Virus record (IMG/VR): IMGVR_UViG_3300028392_000036
Span: 1-64,000 of that record
From: a virus
Length of the DNA: 64,000 bases
Reading direction: 5' to 3' (one strand)
Each line of letters begins with the position of its first letter. Within the stretch, counting starts at the first letter, position 1. A program made the position numbers and the translations under genes. Below, one piece after another: positions 59,749 through 64,000 of this stretch. Under the pieces are notes generated by a model, which saw nothing but the letters and a program-made list of their open reading frames with translations, did not search any database and was not told the DNA's origin.

Positions 59749-60185
59749 AAATTGGGCTAAGTTACAGTCGTTGTGTTCGTGATATCGTGGACGGTGTGGT
59801 AGACATTGATGATGTATTAGTTCTCATCACTCGTACGGATTTTGATCCGCATGATGACGACCAGTGGCGAGGCATTTGGATCGGTTATGGCGGTGGTACT
59901 GAAAATGCTTACAGCCGTGGATTCTTTAGCCAAAGCAATCCTGAATGGGCCGGCTATCACGATGAGGATCAATTCCGCAGTGTCAGCATTGAACTTTGGG
60001 AAACTGGTAAGTTACATCAGCCACGCAAATTTGGTTCGAAGCCTGCTCGTCGTCCTGAGATATGGTTGGAAACTGTGTTACCAGATTCAGAGATGATGAA
60101 TCGTCCTGCAGTGAAAGATGCTTGGGATCAGTTTCAGACCATCGCAGGTTTGACCAACACCAAACTAGATCGTAACTACAGATGA
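59745..60185 (+). CDS. Hypothetical protein
   Basis: MKIGLSYSRCVRDI, GKLHQPRKFG. Confidence 0.7.
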   Translation: MKIGLSYSRCVRDIVDGVVDIDDVLVLITRTDFDPHDDDQWRGIWIGYGGGTENAYSRGFFSQSNPEWAGYHDEDQFRSVSIELWETGKLHQPRKFGSKPARRPEIWLETVLPDSEMMNRPAVKDAWDQFQTIAGLTNTKLDRNYR

Positions 60186-60292
60186 AGATTTCATCTAAAA
60201 ATCTTGAAATACAGTTGCCATGGGAACCGGGCCTACTAGAATGGTTGCAAGAACACTATCCAGTTTCGGGATATTTTTTAATAGAGGAATAA
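60182..60292 (+). CDS. Putative 36-aa protein
   Basis: Fills the gap with an ATGA overlap; LLEWLQEHYP. Confidence 0.45.
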   Translation: MKISSKNLEIQLPWEPGLLEWLQEHYPVSGYFLIEE

Positions 60293-60293
60293 T

Positions 60294-61217
60294 ATGGCCA
60301 CAGTTAAAGAACAAGAAAAACTATTAGAAGTTTTAAAATTTACACCACGCACCTACAAAATCAATATGTGGGGGTACGGTGGTGAGTATGTTATGGGCAC
60401 CGTGGATCGCAAGATTTACGATTACTTCAAACATCGTAGACTAGATCTTAGCGACTTTGCGTGGGATTCAGACTATGCAGAAGAAAACAATATTCCCGAA
60501 GAAATGTGGCCATTTCCGCCGGGCAGTTATTATGACTGTGACGATATGGGTCACATACACGGTGTTGATCGTGCGGCTGGCACACTTCAAATCGATGACG
60601 AAGATGGTGAAACAGTTTATCAACGTGAATTGTCTGACATCTCGGGAGACGAAGAAGATGACCCTCAATGGGGTGGCGGAGAAGAAGTTTGGATTACTAG
60701 CCAGCCCGCAGGCTATGTGGTGTTCCTGGGCGTGAGCAACGAGAAAGGCACATTCTTTGAAGGCGATATCCATCTCAATACACCGTTTGATATTTCCAAG
60801 CTCACAATCAGCTACGACGAGTTTGACGGTAATGATATTATCACCGGAGTAGAATATGATGGTGAATCAGTTGACAACTACGGCGGCGACACCAATGGTA
60901 AGAGCTCAGACTTTGGGTTTTACTTGATCAAAGATTCAAACTCCTGGGAAAAATATTCAAATATGAATGATATTGAATACTCAATGACCGATTGGTTTCC
61001 TAAAAAAATCAAACCAGCGTATGTGGGCAACTACTTGGTCAAGACTGCTGGCAAAAATTCTTGGACACATCAGTGTATGTGGACTGGAAAACAATGGGTA
61101 AATATGTGGACTGATGAAAAAGACTACGACGATCCTGAAAAAGCAGTTAAGATAAAAGAGTGGCAAGGACTAACACAGGATCCAGATGCTACCGAGTGGC
61201 CAACCAATAGACCTTAA
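60294..61217 (+). CDS. Acidic hypothetical protein
   Basis: 307 aa, D/E/W/Y-rich. Confidence 0.7.
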   Translation: MATVKEQEKLLEVLKFTPRTYKINMWGYGGEYVMGTVDRKIYDYFKHRRLDLSDFAWDSDYAEENNIPEEMWPFPPGSYYDCDDMGHIHGVDRAAGTLQIDDEDGETVYQRELSDISGDEEDDPQWGGGEEVWITSQPAGYVVFLGVSNEKGTFFEGDIHLNTPFDISKLTISYDEFDGNDIITGVEYDGESVDNYGGDTNGKSSDFGFYLIKDSNSWEKYSNMNDIEYSMTDWFPKKIKPAYVGNYLVKTAGKNSWTHQCMWTGKQWVNMWTDEKDYDDPEKAVKIKEWQGLTQDPDATEWPTNRP

Positions 61218-61228
61218 AGGAGAAAACT

Positions 61229-61918
61229 ATGAATGATACCCTTATATTTAATGACGAGCAATACCGTTCGGCTGAACAAATCAACTCGGCTATGGGCCGT
61301 GTTTACGGACACATGAGTCTAGCAGTGATTGTGTCAATGCTGGTCAGTTATTTGGTAGGAACCACACCTGAGTTGCTACAGTTCTTTTTCACTGGCGTAA
61401 TAAAGTGGATTGTGATCTTTGCACCGCTAGCGGCCATATTTGGTGTGAGCATGGTGCTGGGCAACGATCCGAGTAAACCAGTGGCACAGTTGTGCCTACA
61501 TGGCTTTGCGGCCCTGATGGGCCTGAGTTTCTCAATGATCTTTGCTGTGTTTGCCATGGGATCAATTGTTAGTGCATTTATGGGCGCGGCCATCTTGTTT
61601 GGTGTTATGAGTGGCTATGGCTACTTTACCAAGCGCAGTCTAGACAGTGTTGGTAAGTTTATGTTTGTGGGTTTGATCGCCATCTGTATTGCCAGTATAG
61701 TCAACATCTTTATTGGCAGCACCGTGATGCAGATGGTGATCTCTGCACTTGCTATTATAATCTTTCTTGGCCTTACTGCCTATGACACACAACAGATCCG
61801 CGAAGAACTTGTGTACGAAACCAACGATGCCGCAGAAGTGCGTGGTGCGCTAACTTTGTACATGGACTTTATTAACTTGTTCTTGAATTTGTTACAACTA
61901 TTTGGTGATAGGAAATAA
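61229..61918 (+). CDS. Bax inhibitor-1/YccA family membrane protein
   Basis: About 7 TMs, GLTAYDTQ, ALTLYMDFINLFL.LL. Confidence 0.92.
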   Translation: MNDTLIFNDEQYRSAEQINSAMGRVYGHMSLAVIVSMLVSYLVGTTPELLQFFFTGVIKWIVIFAPLAAIFGVSMVLGNDPSKPVAQLCLHGFAALMGLSFSMIFAVFAMGSIVSAFMGAAILFGVMSGYGYFTKRSLDSVGKFMFVGLIAICIASIVNIFIGSTVMQMVISALAIIIFLGLTAYDTQQIREELVYETNDAAEVRGALTLYMDFINLFLNLLQLFGDRK

Positions 61919-61920
61919 TC

Positions 61921-62304
61921 ATGGCTACCTGGGTACTAACAACCACTGAAAAGAAAAACGTTGAAGAAATTGAATTTTGGTACAAAGACGGAAAGACAAT
62001 CAAACGCACCACTGGGTTTCGTTGGGGCACAGTGTATTGTGAAAGCGATGAACGTCCTGATATTGATTTAGCGAATCCAGACGGTCTTGAAGTATTTGCT
62101 ACTGATTATGACTTTGAACTTGATAACTTGGATGATGGACATTACTGCGATGTTGAATATCCAGACGACATGAGCGAGGAAGAACAAGAACGCATGGATG
62201 AACTATGGGATGAAGATTCCTACGGTGCCTGGGAAGAAGAGGGTTGGTCAAATGATGATACAGAAACTTGGTTCAATGGCCCACTAGATTTAGAACAACA
62301 GTAA
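61921..62304 (+). CDS. Highly acidic small protein
   Basis: 127 aa; C-terminal half dominated by D/E with spaced W. Confidence 0.7.
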   Translation: MATWVLTTTEKKNVEEIEFWYKDGKTIKRTTGFRWGTVYCESDERPDIDLANPDGLEVFATDYDFELDNLDDGHYCDVEYPDDMSEEEQERMDELWDEDSYGAWEEEGWSNDDTETWFNGPLDLEQQ

Positions 62305-62305
62305 G

Positions 62306-62335
62306 TTGACAACGCCACTACTTTCCTTGTATAAT
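62306..62335 (+). promoter_or_regulatory. sigma70 promoter
   Basis: TTGACA-N18-TATAAT. Confidence 0.75.
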
Positions 62336-62341
62336 GTACGT

Positions 62342-62506
62342 GTGCATGAGCAAGGAGATTGGTGGCGATCTAATGGTGTGAGCGGGGTGATTGAACGCCC
62401 GGGCCCGACACAACCGTGGCAGGTAGATATAATGCCCACAAGGTTGAGACACTGTCCAAGATCCGGCAACGGATCAAAACCGGCTGATACCCGGTGTATG
62501 CTCAAG
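62342..62506 (+). ncRNA. Putative structured ncRNA / cis-regulatory leader
   Basis: GC-rich; closing stem TGAGCA/TGCTCA encloses five hairpins, including GATCCG-GCAA-CGGATC. Confidence 0.6.
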
Positions 62507-62534
62507 TTGGAAATCACAGTGAAAGGAAGTTTAA

Positions 62535-62852
62535 ATGTCTGTTAAAATAGAAGCCTCTGATTCCACGCTTCCGTCCCTTGACTCTCTTAAAACAACGGCT
62601 TTGCCCATGCACAAATTATATTTCGAATTGTCTAGTGTGGACACATGGTATACTATCATGCGAGAAGCACGAGCACAGTTTGGCAAGAACTGGCGTAGTC
62701 AGGCACACGTCAAACGGCGACTAGAACATGCCGCACTTTGGCGACTAAACGACCAAGCAGAACGTGTATGGTTTGAAGTGCCAGATCCTAAGTTTGGAAC
62801 CTGGATAGCAATTAAACATGCTGTTAGACAGGTTGAACCCACCGGTAAATAA
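62535..62852 (+). CDS. Hypothetical protein
   Basis: AAGGA RBS; FGKNWRSQ.HVKRRL, VWFEVPD. Confidence 0.7.
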   Translation: MSVKIEASDSTLPSLDSLKTTALPMHKLYFELSSVDTWYTIMREARAQFGKNWRSQAHVKRRLEHAALWRLNDQAERVWFEVPDPKFGTWIAIKHAVRQVEPTGK

Positions 62853-62858
62853 TACTCT

Positions 62859-64000
62859 ATGATATTTGGTTTTAGCATCCTGGCCACAGCAATCTTACTC
62901 AGTTGCGTGGCCGCTTATTATTCTGTAGCAGGCTTAACAGCCATCTTCAGTGCGGCAACCATACCAGTTATCATCATGGGTGGCAGTCTAGAACTAGGCA
63001 AAATTGTGGCCACTGTATGGTTGCACAATAATTGGAAACGTGCTGGAATCTTGTTCAAAGCATATCTAGTGCCTGCGGTAGCGTTCCTAATGCTGTTGAC
63101 ATCAATGGGCATTTTTGGCTATCTCTCCAAGGCCCATTCAGATCAAAGCCTAGTGTCAGGTGATGCAGTAGCAAAGGTAGCAATCTACGATGAAAAGATC
63201 AAGATATCTCGTGACAATATTGAAGCCGACCGCCGGGCACTTAAACAGATGGATGAGGCTGTGGACCAAGTTATGGGCCGATCAGCAGATGAAAAAGGTG
63301 CCGACAAAGCAGTTGCAATACGAAGAGGCCAGCAACGAGAACGGTCTAGGATACTTGCTGACATCGAAGCCGAACAGAAAAAGATTACTGGTCTTAATGA
63401 AGAACGGGCGCCATTAGCGGCCGAGTTCCGCAAGGTTGAGTCAGAAGTAGGACCAATCAAGTACATTGCGGCCTTGGTGTATGGCGACAATCCTGACTCA
63501 AATGTACTAGAACGTGCTGTACGACTTGTGATCATCATGATTGTGCTGGTGTTTGACCCGCTAGCCCTTACCTTAATTCTAGCCGCCAACAAACAATTTC
63601 AATGGGCAAGAGAAGGCACCGGAGGCTTTGTACACGACGAGCCCAAGTACGATCCCGACAATGGTCCATTAACTGAGGACCAAATAGAACAAATAAAAGT
63701 GTCAGTGCCAGAACCACCCGATGATCCTATACCTTGCTACAAATGTGGTACACCATTGGTTGACGCTCCGGGCATTGGCCTGTTCTGCCCCAACAAGGAA
63801 TGTGATGTTATAGACAATGTCAACGGTGAAGAACCTGTTAAGTTTGCACCAATTGAAATTGAATACAAGTTTGTAGACGAACACCACGAATCTGATTATG
63901 CTCCAGCCCTTCACGTGTACGATGATGAACGACTGGTATCAAAGTTTGACAAGATACAGGCGATTGAGCCACCAGACGATGAACTTGACGATGATGACGA
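62859..64000 (+). CDS. Membrane-anchored coiled-coil protein (3'-truncated at window edge)
   Basis: ATG 62859 after TAAATA; N-terminal TMs (VAAYYSVAGL, LELGK, TSMGIFGYLSKAH), coiled coil, EVGPIKYIA, FDPLA, CYKC..CPNKEC; I found no stop before the window edge. Confidence 0.8.
   Translation, partial: MIFGFSILATAILLSCVAAYYSVAGLTAIFSAATIPVIIMGGSLELGKIVATVWLHNNWKRAGILFKAYLVPAVAFLMLLTSMGIFGYLSKAHSDQSLVSGDAVAKVAIYDEKIKISRDNIEADRRALKQMDEAVDQVMGRSADEKGADKAVAIRRGQQRERSRILADIEAEQKKITGLNEERAPLAAEFRKVESEVGPIKYIAALVYGDNPDSNVLERAVRLVIIMIVLVFDPLALTLILAANKQFQWAREGTGGFVHDEPKYDPDNGPLTEDQIEQIKVSVPEPPDDPIPCYKCGTPLVDAPGIGLFCPNKECDVIDNVNGEEPVKFAPIEIEYKFVDEHHESDYAPALHVYDDERLVSKFDKIQAIEPPDDELDDDD

What the first reader, a model, noticed from the sequence alone, without database searches (positions are those of the whole stretch)
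62306..62534. Candidate novel multi-stem ncRNA behind its own sigma70 promoter
Seen: TTGACA-N18-TATAAT, then about 190 nt of GC-rich sequence in an otherwise gap-free genome. Closing stem TGAGCA (62347-52)/TGCTCA (62499-504). Inner helices: AGATTG/CGATCT (62356-71), CGGG/CCCG (62383-401), CAACC-GTGGCA/TGCCCAC-GGTTG (62411-46), possible TGGTGT/ACACTG, GATCCG-GCAA-CGGATC (62460-75, GNRA loop) and ACCGG/CCGGT (62479-95). It is not a tRNA and I do not recognise a known riboswitch. Inference: a multibranch sRNA, ribozyme or cis-regulator linked to the downstream 105-aa basic/aromatic protein, possibly an RNA-protein pair.
Basis: partly seen in the sequence, partly recalled or inferred. Interest (0 to 1): 0.7.

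Follow-up and report, generated by a model that had tools for sequence, protein, structure and literature searches.

The report
New folded leader RNA, lake phages
Behind a perfect bacterial-type promoter, this uncultured giant lake phage and over a hundred relatives make an uncatalogued, intricately folded RNA of about 267 bases that wraps around the start of one small gene and most likely controls its translation.

Summary
It matches no Rfam family (E<=1) and is not a tRNA. Its single-sequence folding energy is unremarkable (z -0.4 to -0.8), so all the evidence is comparative.

- **Occurrence:** a covariance model finds one copy in 80 viral loci and in 52 of 52 metagenome loci that were collected through the downstream protein alone. 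The RNA always ends at that gene's start codon.
- **Promoter:** it lies behind TTGACA-N17/18-TATAAT in 73 of 75 distinct copies.
- **Structure:** 59 base pairs in 12 helices are 92.5% paired across 34 diverse sequences, against 27-42% when the partners are slid. 37 pairs show compensatory changes.
- **Closing helix:** the transcript's first 12 nt (62344-55) pair with codons 22-26 of the 105-aa gene (62599-610). The element therefore spans about 62344-62610 and encloses the ribosome-binding site and AUG.
two hairpins are confirmed, one stem has the wrong 3' partner, and three are unsupported.
- **Apical loop:** it carries palindromes whose sequences switch between relatives, which suggests RNA-RNA kissing.

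The most likely role is translational control of the first gene of an early operon that runs on into clpX. The trigger is unknown. This scan found the same family earlier on other phage DNA.

The parts
62306..62335 (+). Sigma70-type promoter: -35 TTGACA (62306-11), 18-nt spacer, -10 TATAAT (62330-35)
   Evidence: 12/12 match. The hexamers are conserved while the spacer varies in 73 of 75 distinct family members. The conserved GCAUG lies 6 or 8 nt after the -10 box.
62344..62355 (+). P1 5' strand (GCAUGAGCAAGG), at or next to the inferred transcript 5' end
   Evidence: Pairs with 62599-62610: 96.6% of cells paired and 7 of 12 pairs with compensatory changes. An RNA contig starts matching at 62343.
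62368..62376 (+). P2 5' strand: AUCUA (P2a) plus AUGG (P2b)
   Evidence: Pairs with UAGAU 62424-28 and CCGU 62414-17. All 5 P2a pairs covary, and pairing is 98-100%.
62383..62407 (+). P3 hairpin: CGGG 62383-86 with CCCG 62404-07. The 17-nt apical loop ends in the palindrome CCCGGG (62398-403).
   Evidence: 3 of 4 pairs covary. Loop palindromes switch sequence across relatives (CCCGGG/CCTAGG/ACCGGT/TCCGGA; ATCGAT/TTCGAA/TAGCTA/AGATCT and others). The longest palindrome averages 6.5 nt against 3.3 in shuffles.
62414..62428 (+). P2 3' strand: CCGU 62414-17, 6-nt bulge GGCAGG 62418-23, UAGAU 62424-28
62418..62421 (+). Pseudoknot strand GGCA, in the P2 bulge, pairing with UGCU at 62499-62502
   Evidence: 98.5% paired. 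The first pair is GC 19, GU 9, AU 4. AGCA always goes with UGCU, in 12 of 12 distinct sequences. This may reflect only one or a few evolutionary events.
62450..62459 (+). P4 5' strand: CACUGU (P4a) plus CCAA (P4b). P4 closes a three-way junction.
   Evidence: Pairs with ACAGUG 62516-21 and UUGG 62507-10. 7 of 10 pairs have compensatory changes. P4a has an internal mismatch in some subtypes.
62460..62475 (+). P5 hairpin GAUCCG-GCAA-CGGAUC (GNRA loop)
Evidence: 5-6 covarying pairs.
62476..62480 (+). Conserved junction AAAAC between P5 and P6. Its last two bases overlap the start of P6 in this window.
   Evidence: Nearly invariant in 75 sequences.
62479..62495 (+). P6 hairpin ACCGG-CUGAUAC-CCGGU
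Evidence: Compensatory G-C to A-U and C-G to U-A changes. Loop size varies in distant members.
62496..62502 (+). Conserved GUAUGCY. Its UGCU (62499-502) is the 3' strand of the pseudoknot.
62507..62521 (+). P4 3' strand: UUGG 62507-10 and ACAGUG 62516-21, ending next to the ribosome-binding site
62522..62537 (+). Initiation region: Shine-Dalgarno AAAGGAAG (62522-29) and AUG (62535-37). It lies in a 19-nt unpaired stretch between P4a and P7.
   Evidence: The SD GAAAGG is conserved. The ORF is 62535-62852.
62541..62582 (+). P7/P8 hairpin inside the ORF: GUUAA 62541-45 with UUGAC 62578-82, and AAGC 62551-54 with GCUU 62567-70
   Evidence: 98.8% and 97.8% paired. 2 of 5 and 4 of 4 pairs have compensatory changes. 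These bases encode the low-confidence N-terminus of the protein.
62599..62610 (+). P1 3' strand CUUUGCCCAUGC (codons about 22-26, the L-x-M-H motif)
62535..62852 (+). p105 gene: 105-aa basic protein of unknown function, found so far only in viral and metagenome sequence, with a ferredoxin-like fold
   Evidence: No Pfam, PHROG, NCBIfam or PDB sequence hit. AlphaFold2 mean pLDDT 76.9. Fold matches are generic, Z<=6.5. 124 close and 85 distant clusters.

Best explanation
The feature is a previously uncatalogued, deeply conserved structured RNA of about 267 nt (about 62344-62610). It forms the 5' end of an early, host-RNA-polymerase-transcribed mRNA in giant lake phages whose terminase resembles that of Pseudomonas phage PA5oct.

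Shown by comparison:
- **Helices:** twelve in all. A 12-bp closing helix (P1) joins the first transcribed bases to codons 22-26 of the first gene.
- **Arms:** there is a long bulged arm (P2-P3), a three-way junction (P4-P5-P6), a bulge-to-junction pseudoknot and a hairpin inside the ORF (P7-P8).
- **Initiation region:** the Shine-Dalgarno sequence and AUG sit in a stretch of about 19 unpaired nt between P4a and P7, all enclosed by P1.

Inferred: when fully folded, the RNA limits or gates 30S access and so sets translation of p105. It probably also sets translation of the genes that follow (p518 membrane protein, clpX). A base-paired 5' end may in addition protect the mRNA.

The trigger is unknown. 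Candidates are p105 itself (autogenous control), a small ligand bound at the conserved junctions and pseudoknot, or self-association through the palindromic P3 loop.
For: - **No known family:** there is no Rfam match at E<=1 and no tRNA.
- **Conservation:** the intergenic DNA is 84-95% identical in about 20 related contigs.
- **Model hits:** covariance model R1 matches 80 loci in viral contigs and 52/52 loci that were fetched through the protein alone. There is a single copy in this genome.
- **Covariation:** 59 pairs are 92.5% paired against 27-42% when slid. 37 pairs have double changes, and 0/500 shuffles reach the observed values for percentage paired, number of pairs or cells with double changes, or covariation score. 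An independent set gives 85.9% paired and 23 covarying pairs.
- **P1:** 96.6% paired with 7/12 pairs compensated. One relative has the strand rewritten as GCACAGGCAUG/CAUGCCUGUGC.
- **Promoter:** conserved in 73/75 distinct copies.
- **Not a protein:** open frames sit in inconsistent phases, and element lengths fall in all three classes modulo 3.
- **Transcription:** lake metatranscriptome contigs from 4 studies cover 62343-62725, 62354-62608, 62412-62562 and 62406-62598. They bridge the leader and the ORF, and none of the contigs shown reaches upstream of 62343.
- **Linkage:** loci that keep the upstream or downstream neighbour genes but lack p105 also lack the RNA.
Against: - The SD and AUG are themselves unpaired in the model, so the direction of control (repression or presentation) is not shown.
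- No ligand, protein partner or alternative conformer was demonstrated.
- The single-sequence folding energy is not better than that of shuffles.
- All members come from one phage lineage with conserved gene order, so the link to p105 cannot separate function from shared descent.
- Some distant p105 homologues have no such leader (L308/L309, a 65-nt gap).
- Contigs cannot prove transcript ends or levels.
Confidence: 0.55

Rival explanations
1. The element works mainly as a stable RNA in its own right, released or left over from the mRNA. It self-associates through the palindromic P3 loops, as the ornate RNAs OLE, GOLLD and ROOL do, and acts in trans, for example by binding a host or phage factor. 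The overlap with the p105 start would then be secondary.
For: - The P3 apical loop carries one or two palindromes whose sequences switch while staying self-complementary. More than 10 variants are seen. The longest palindrome averages 6.5 nt against 3.3 in shuffles.
- The same signature was used to support intermolecular kissing loops in OLE and GOLLD (10.1101/2024.12.08.627333).
- Three of the four RNA contigs stop at or within the element's 3' part (62608, 62598, 62562).
- The listed lake RNA runs (21 on record as RNA) each hold only 9-20% of the words of an 801-nt stretch.
Against: - One contig runs on to 62725, and all four bridge into the ORF.
- There is no terminator or other visible 3'-end signal.
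- At 267 nt the element is far smaller than the ornate RNAs.
- This window's own loop has only one palindrome (CCCGGG), which also overlaps an alternative intramolecular pairing.
- Contig ends and word shares are biased, because the RNA is better conserved than the flanking codons.
Confidence: 0.2
2. It is a metabolite- or ion-sensing riboswitch. The conserved junction and pseudoknot nucleotides would form the ligand pocket, and P1, P4 and P7 would be the expression platform around the initiation region.
For: - Many invariant unpaired nucleotides cluster in junctions and bulges (AAUGG/CCGU, RGCA, GUAGGNUGCGAC, AAAAC, GUAUGC), while the stems vary with compensation.
- The size and complexity resemble those of large aptamers.
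Against: - It is found before a single gene family only.
- The downstream genes give no hint of a metabolic or transport pathway.
- No anti-SD or terminator alternative was found.
- Extending 76 nt into an ORF is unusual for a riboswitch.
Confidence: 0.15
3. The conservation reflects something other than RNA structure: a small protein encoded on either strand, or DNA-level operators (the palindromes) for a dimeric regulator.
For: - The window has open frames of 79 aa (+) and 75 aa (-) across the region.
- 49 of 75 members have a stop-free stretch of at least 60 codons in some frame, mostly on the - strand.
- Palindromes are typical of operators.
Against: - The open frames sit in different phases relative to fixed anchors, and single-base indels are common.
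- 37 base pairs change on both sides in a way that keeps the pairing, which neither a coding constraint nor an operator explains.
- The palindrome sequences differ widely between close relatives.
Confidence: 0.03

Closest known systems
Autogenous translational operators whose fold embraces the initiation region: E. coli alpha-operon leader bound by S4 (Rfam Alpha_RBS), rpsO/S15 pseudoknot, phage T4 gene 32 leader pseudoknot (from established knowledge)
   Same: A structured, pseudoknotted 5' leader of a single operon. The fold surrounds the SD and AUG and reaches into the first codons. It is always attached to one particular gene.
   Different: There is no sequence or covariance-model similarity. 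The element is much larger, at about 267 nt and 12 helices. Its closing helix pairs the very 5' end with codons 22-26. Binding by the encoded protein is untested, and p105 has no recognisable RNA-binding family.
Ornate self-assembling RNAs OLE, GOLLD and ROOL (10.1101/2024.12.08.627333)
   Same: The RNA is found in phages of lake environments. It has an elaborate covarying structure with a pseudoknot. Its loop palindromes switch sequence while staying self-complementary, which is the signature of symmetric kissing loops.
   Different: The element does not match the Rfam models of these RNAs. It is 267 nt against about 600-800 nt. It overlaps a ribosome-binding site and 25 codons of a gene, rather than being a free-standing gene.
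Translational riboswitches
   Same: Conserved junction nucleotides with variable, compensated stems. The position is directly before and around an SD.
   Different: No known class matches. Only one gene family is associated with it. No SD-sequestering alternative helix was seen, and no ligand is known.
Candidate structured RNAs predicted in IMG/VR viruses (Fremin, Bhatt and Kyrpides 2023, PMC10690425)
   Same: The same data source. That paper also describes cis-regulatory candidates placed consistently upstream of one gene (GP20, GP32).
   Different: Whether this family is among their 10,006 unnamed candidates could not be checked, because no supplementary file is held. The text does not describe it.

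Membership tests
Any Rfam 15 family (riboswitches, ribozymes, sRNAs, leaders, OLE/GOLLD/ROOL) | Covariance-model match at or near the gathering score | tested here: not met
   cmscan of 60000-64000 at E<=1 gave 0 matches. The whole window at gathering score also gave 0.
tRNA / tmRNA | Cloverleaf or tmRNA detected by ARAGORN | tested here: not met
   0 genes in the window.
Autogenous translational operator (S4 / S15 / T4 gp32 type) | A structured element on the regulated mRNA that includes or encloses the SD and start codon | tested here: met
   P1 (62344-55 with 62599-610), P4 and P7 flank the SD and AUG. All are supported by covariation.
Autogenous translational operator (S4 / S15 / T4 gp32 type) | Pseudoknot or comparable tertiary pairing | tested here: inconclusive
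   GGCA with UGCU is 98.5% paired, with GC, GU and AU at one position. This may reflect only one or a few evolutionary events.
Autogenous translational operator (S4 / S15 / T4 gp32 type) | The encoded protein binds its own leader and represses translation | not testable with these tools
   The p105 fold is a generic ferredoxin-like fold. No binding test is available.
Riboswitch | A conserved aptamer with covarying stems and invariant junction nucleotides | tested here: met
Riboswitch | Association with several genes of one pathway or transport function | tested here: not met
   It occurs only upstream of the p105 family, with one copy per genome.
Riboswitch | Ligand-dependent alternative structure (expression platform) | tested here: inconclusive
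   There is no terminator, and no covarying anti-SD helix turned up in the scan of unpaired columns. A ligand cannot be tested here.
Ornate self-assembling RNAs (OLE/GOLLD/ROOL type) | Loop palindromes that covary while remaining self-complementary (symmetric kissing loops) | tested here: met
   More than 10 different palindromes at the same loop sites. The longest averages 6.5 nt against 3.3 in shuffles. The criterion is taken from 10.1101/2024.12.08.627333.
Ornate self-assembling RNAs (OLE/GOLLD/ROOL type) | A large (over 500 nt), free-standing non-coding gene | tested here: not met
   The element is about 267 nt and overlaps the SD and 25 codons of p105.

The most novel reading that the evidence does not exclude
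The element is a new class of self-associating 'RNA cage' built into an mRNA. Two copies would kiss through the palindromic P3 loops, so that the concentration of the early transcript itself (or capture of a partner such as p105, a ribosome or ribosomal protein S21) switches translation of a phage proteostasis operon. In this reading the first 25 codons of the gene evolve mainly as RNA structure.
Probability: 0.15. Interest if true: 0.85.

Novelty: new variant of a known kind. Interest (0 to 1): 0.66.

Why it matters
Large structured RNA families with dozens of covarying pairs are rare, and each one found so far has turned out to have an interesting function. This family is abundant in lake giant phages, is expressed in lake metatranscriptomes, and heads an early operon that runs on into clpX.

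It folds across a ribosome-binding site and into 25 codons. It therefore offers a tractable case of coding sequence constrained by RNA structure, and possibly of mRNA self-association. Because it uses a consensus sigma70 promoter, it can be tested directly in E. coli even though the phage is uncultured.

Tried and rejected
- **Rfam and ARAGORN:** nothing found.
- **Single-sequence folding:** not significant.
rejected on covariation.
- **My own first closing-helix idea:** I paired the 5' GCAUG with GUAUGC at 62496-501. I dropped it once the 5' end was found to pair with ORF nt 62599-610, with compensatory changes.
- **Hairpin CGGG with the inner CCCG (62398-401):** the outer partner is the one that covaries.
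- **P6 as an anticodon-arm mimic** (7-nt loop CUGAUAC): rejected, because loop size and sequence vary in distant members.
- **A further helix between the 5' junction (62356-67) and ORF nt +26 to +55:** duplex predictions are strong (mean -24.7 against -17.7 kcal/mol for shuffled segments, which includes P1), but the positions are inconsistent between sequences.
- **Cellular genomes:** a loose DNA pattern gave 120 hits. The covariance model was run on 80 of those loci and none proved real.
- **Cultured phages:** no DNA or p105 match.
- **p105 function:** Pfam, PHROGs, NCBIfam, PDB sequence search, Foldseek, VIA-align and the ESM Atlas gave only a generic ferredoxin-like fold.
- **Supplement of PMC10690425:** not held.
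- **Missing RNA coverage upstream of 62343 and over the rest of the ORF:** I treat this only as a weak hint.

Full report
**Context**

The window is part of an IMG/VR virus record of 142.9 kb, estimated 41% complete. It encodes a T4-type large terminase, ribonucleotide reductase, DnaB-type helicase, DNA ligase and other phage genes. The nearest cultured terminases, at 52% identity, belong to the 287-kb Pseudomonas giant phage PA5oct group.

The finding lies between a 127-aa acidic protein gene (61921-62304) and a 105-aa gene (62535-62852, called p105 here). A 518-aa membrane and coiled-coil protein follows, and a ClpX gene overlaps its end.

**Checking the observation**

- The promoter is a 12/12 consensus match, and there is no terminator nearby.
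- Rfam gives nothing, even at E<=1, and ARAGORN finds no tRNA.
The sequence alone gives no statistical support, so everything below is comparative.

**Relatives**

- Searching viral contigs with the two flanking proteins gave about 40 loci. In these the intergenic DNA is 84-95% identical to the window. The promoter hexamers are kept while the spacer varies, and compensatory changes are visible in two hairpins.
- More divergent copies gave a DNA pattern that retrieved 61 viral loci, of which 7 were chance hits.
- A covariance model built from 24 diverse sequences matched 80 loci, one copy in each.
- The cleanest test used 52 metagenome loci collected only through similarity to p105, down to 50% protein identity. 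All 52 carry the RNA ending at the start codon. This includes 7 loci cut off at a contig end, and the two weakest of these (E 0.002 and 0.006) cover only the last 35 or so model positions.
- The genome has a single copy.
- Loci that keep the upstream 127-aa gene or the downstream membrane-protein gene but lack p105 also lack the RNA.
- Very distant p105 homologues either have a barely recognisable leader (L312/L313, 20 bits) or none at all (L308/L309, a 65-nt gap after a ligase gene).
- No true copy was found in cellular genomes or in cultured phages.

**Structure**

RNAalifold and pair counting established the helices.

- **P2** pairs AUCUA-AUGG (62368-76) with CCGU (62414-17) and UAGAU (62424-28). 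A 6-nt bulge, GGCAGG, lies between the two 3' segments.
- **P3** pairs CGGG (62383-86) with CCCG (62404-07).
- **P4** pairs CACUGU-CCAA (62450-59) with UUGG (62507-10) and ACAGUG (62516-21). It closes a three-way junction.
- **P5** (62460-75, GNRA loop) and **P6** (62479-95) are the two arms of that junction.
- **Pseudoknot:** the bulge GGCA can pair with UGCU at 62499-502. Relatives with AGCA always have UGCU (12 of 12), and GGCA goes with UGCC or UGCU in all but two.

I tested that claim and it holds.

- **P1:** the first 12 transcribed bases (62344-55) pair with 62599-610 in the ORF. The helix is 96.6% paired, and 7 of its 12 pairs have compensatory changes. One relative has both strands rewritten together (GCACAGGCAUG with CAUGCCUGUGC).
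- **P7/P8:** a scan of the remaining unpaired columns found a further covarying hairpin inside the ORF (62541-45 with 62578-82, and 62551-54 with 62567-70).

The complete model has 59 pairs in 12 helices. On 34 diverse sequences it is 92.5% paired, against 27-42% for slid partners. 37 pairs have changes on both sides, and 0 of 500 shuffles reach the observed values for percentage paired, number of pairs or cells with double changes, or covariation score.

**Not a protein**

Open frames are common, mostly on the minus strand. However, they lie in different phases relative to fixed anchors, single-base indels are frequent, and element lengths fall in all three classes modulo 3.

**Transcription**

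- 73 of 75 distinct copies have a near-consensus promoter, with GCAUG 6 or 8 nt after the -10 box. The RNA therefore probably begins at or just before G62344.
- Lake metatranscriptome contigs from four studies cover 62343-62725, 62354-62608, 62412-62562 and 62406-62598.
- All four bridge the leader into the ORF, and none of the contigs shown reaches upstream of 62343.
- Contigs cannot prove ends or levels, so this shows only that the stretch occurs in RNA libraries as one piece with the ORF start.

**The P3 loop**

In most members the apical loop of P3 holds one or two 6-12-nt palindromes. Their sequences differ between relatives:

- Site A: ATCGAT, TTCGAA, CAATTG, TAGCTA, AGATCT, TGATCA and others.
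- Site B: CCCGGG, CCTAGG, ACCGGT, TCCGGA.
- One subtype carries a single long palindrome, ATCTCGAGAT.

The longest palindrome averages 6.5 nt against 3.3 in shuffled loops. Such short palindromes cannot fold on themselves. The same palindrome-switching signature was used to support intermolecular kissing loops in OLE and GOLLD RNA (10.1101/2024.12.08.627333).

In this window only CCCGGG (62398-403) is palindromic, and it also overlaps an alternative pairing with CGGG. I therefore treat dimerisation as a good lead, not as shown.

**The protein**

p105 has no family assignment in Pfam, PHROGs, NCBIfam or PDB sequences. Its homologues come from viral and environmental metagenome sequence.

The AlphaFold2 model has mean pLDDT 76.9. 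It shows a disordered N-terminus of about 20 residues and a ferredoxin-like beta-alpha-beta core. The fold matches only generic folds (Z<=6.5). The disordered N-terminus is encoded exactly by the P7/P8 part of the RNA.

**How it most likely works**

Shown: the SD (62522-29) and AUG (62535) lie in about 19 unpaired nt. P4a ends immediately upstream of them, P7 starts 6 nt after the AUG, and P1 encloses the whole region.

Inferred:
- A 30S subunit needs roughly 35 nt of accessible mRNA. The folded state should therefore gate initiation on p105, and by coupling probably on the genes that follow.
- A paired 5' end may also stabilise the mRNA.

The trigger could be p105 itself, a ligand, or RNA self-association, and none of these could be tested here.

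I give 0.55 to cis translational or stability control, 0.20 to a mainly trans-acting, self-associating stable RNA, 0.15 to a classical riboswitch, and 0.03 to non-RNA explanations.

**Novelty**

This is a new RNA family within a known kind, namely structured leaders that embrace an initiation region. Its unusual traits are its size, a closing helix that reaches 76 nt into the ORF, and the loop palindromes.

This scan had already met the same family on other phage contigs. Whether it is among the 10,006 unnamed candidates of PMC10690425 could not be checked.

Noticed in passing
window 61229-61918 (+): The phage encodes a Bax-inhibitor-1/YccA family membrane protein (Pfam PF01027, E 5e-54). In a related contig (L040:3406-4080) the same gene sits on the other side of the 127-aa gene.
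   Followed up: partly
L315:60-1616 and 1616-2830 (window 62859 onwards, running beyond the window end): The gene after p105 encodes a 518-aa protein with N-terminal membrane helices, a coiled coil, a CxxC...CxxxxC motif and an acidic tail, and has no family match. A ClpX gene (zinc finger plus AAA+ domain) starts at its stop codon, which suggests one operon headed by the RNA.
   Followed up: partly
window 62405-62433 (+): A second promoter-like site (CCGACA-17-TATAAT, 10/12) lies inside the RNA. Its TATAAT overlaps the P2a 3' strand and is not kept in other subtypes (GACGTAAA and similar), so it is probably a by-product.
   Followed up: partly
window 62340-62536, minus strand: 49 of 75 family members have an entirely stop-free minus-strand frame across the RNA, but in inconsistent phases. 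This is probably a composition effect of the structured plus strand and not a gene.
   Followed up: yes
L312:1020-1310 and L311:1150-1505: Distant p105 homologues carry leaders of about 230-300 nt behind TGTTATAAT/TGTTATACT promoters. These leaders keep only fragments of the motif (GGCACAAUCAAAGAAAU, GGCACUGUCC ... ACAGUGAA). This hints at an older and more diverse superfamily of leaders.
   Followed up: partly
window 62535-62610 (codons 1-26 of p105): Coding sequence for the poorly modelled N-terminus covaries as RNA helices (P7, P8, P1). The variable residue before the invariant Met-His changes together with leader bases 62349-51.
   Followed up: yes
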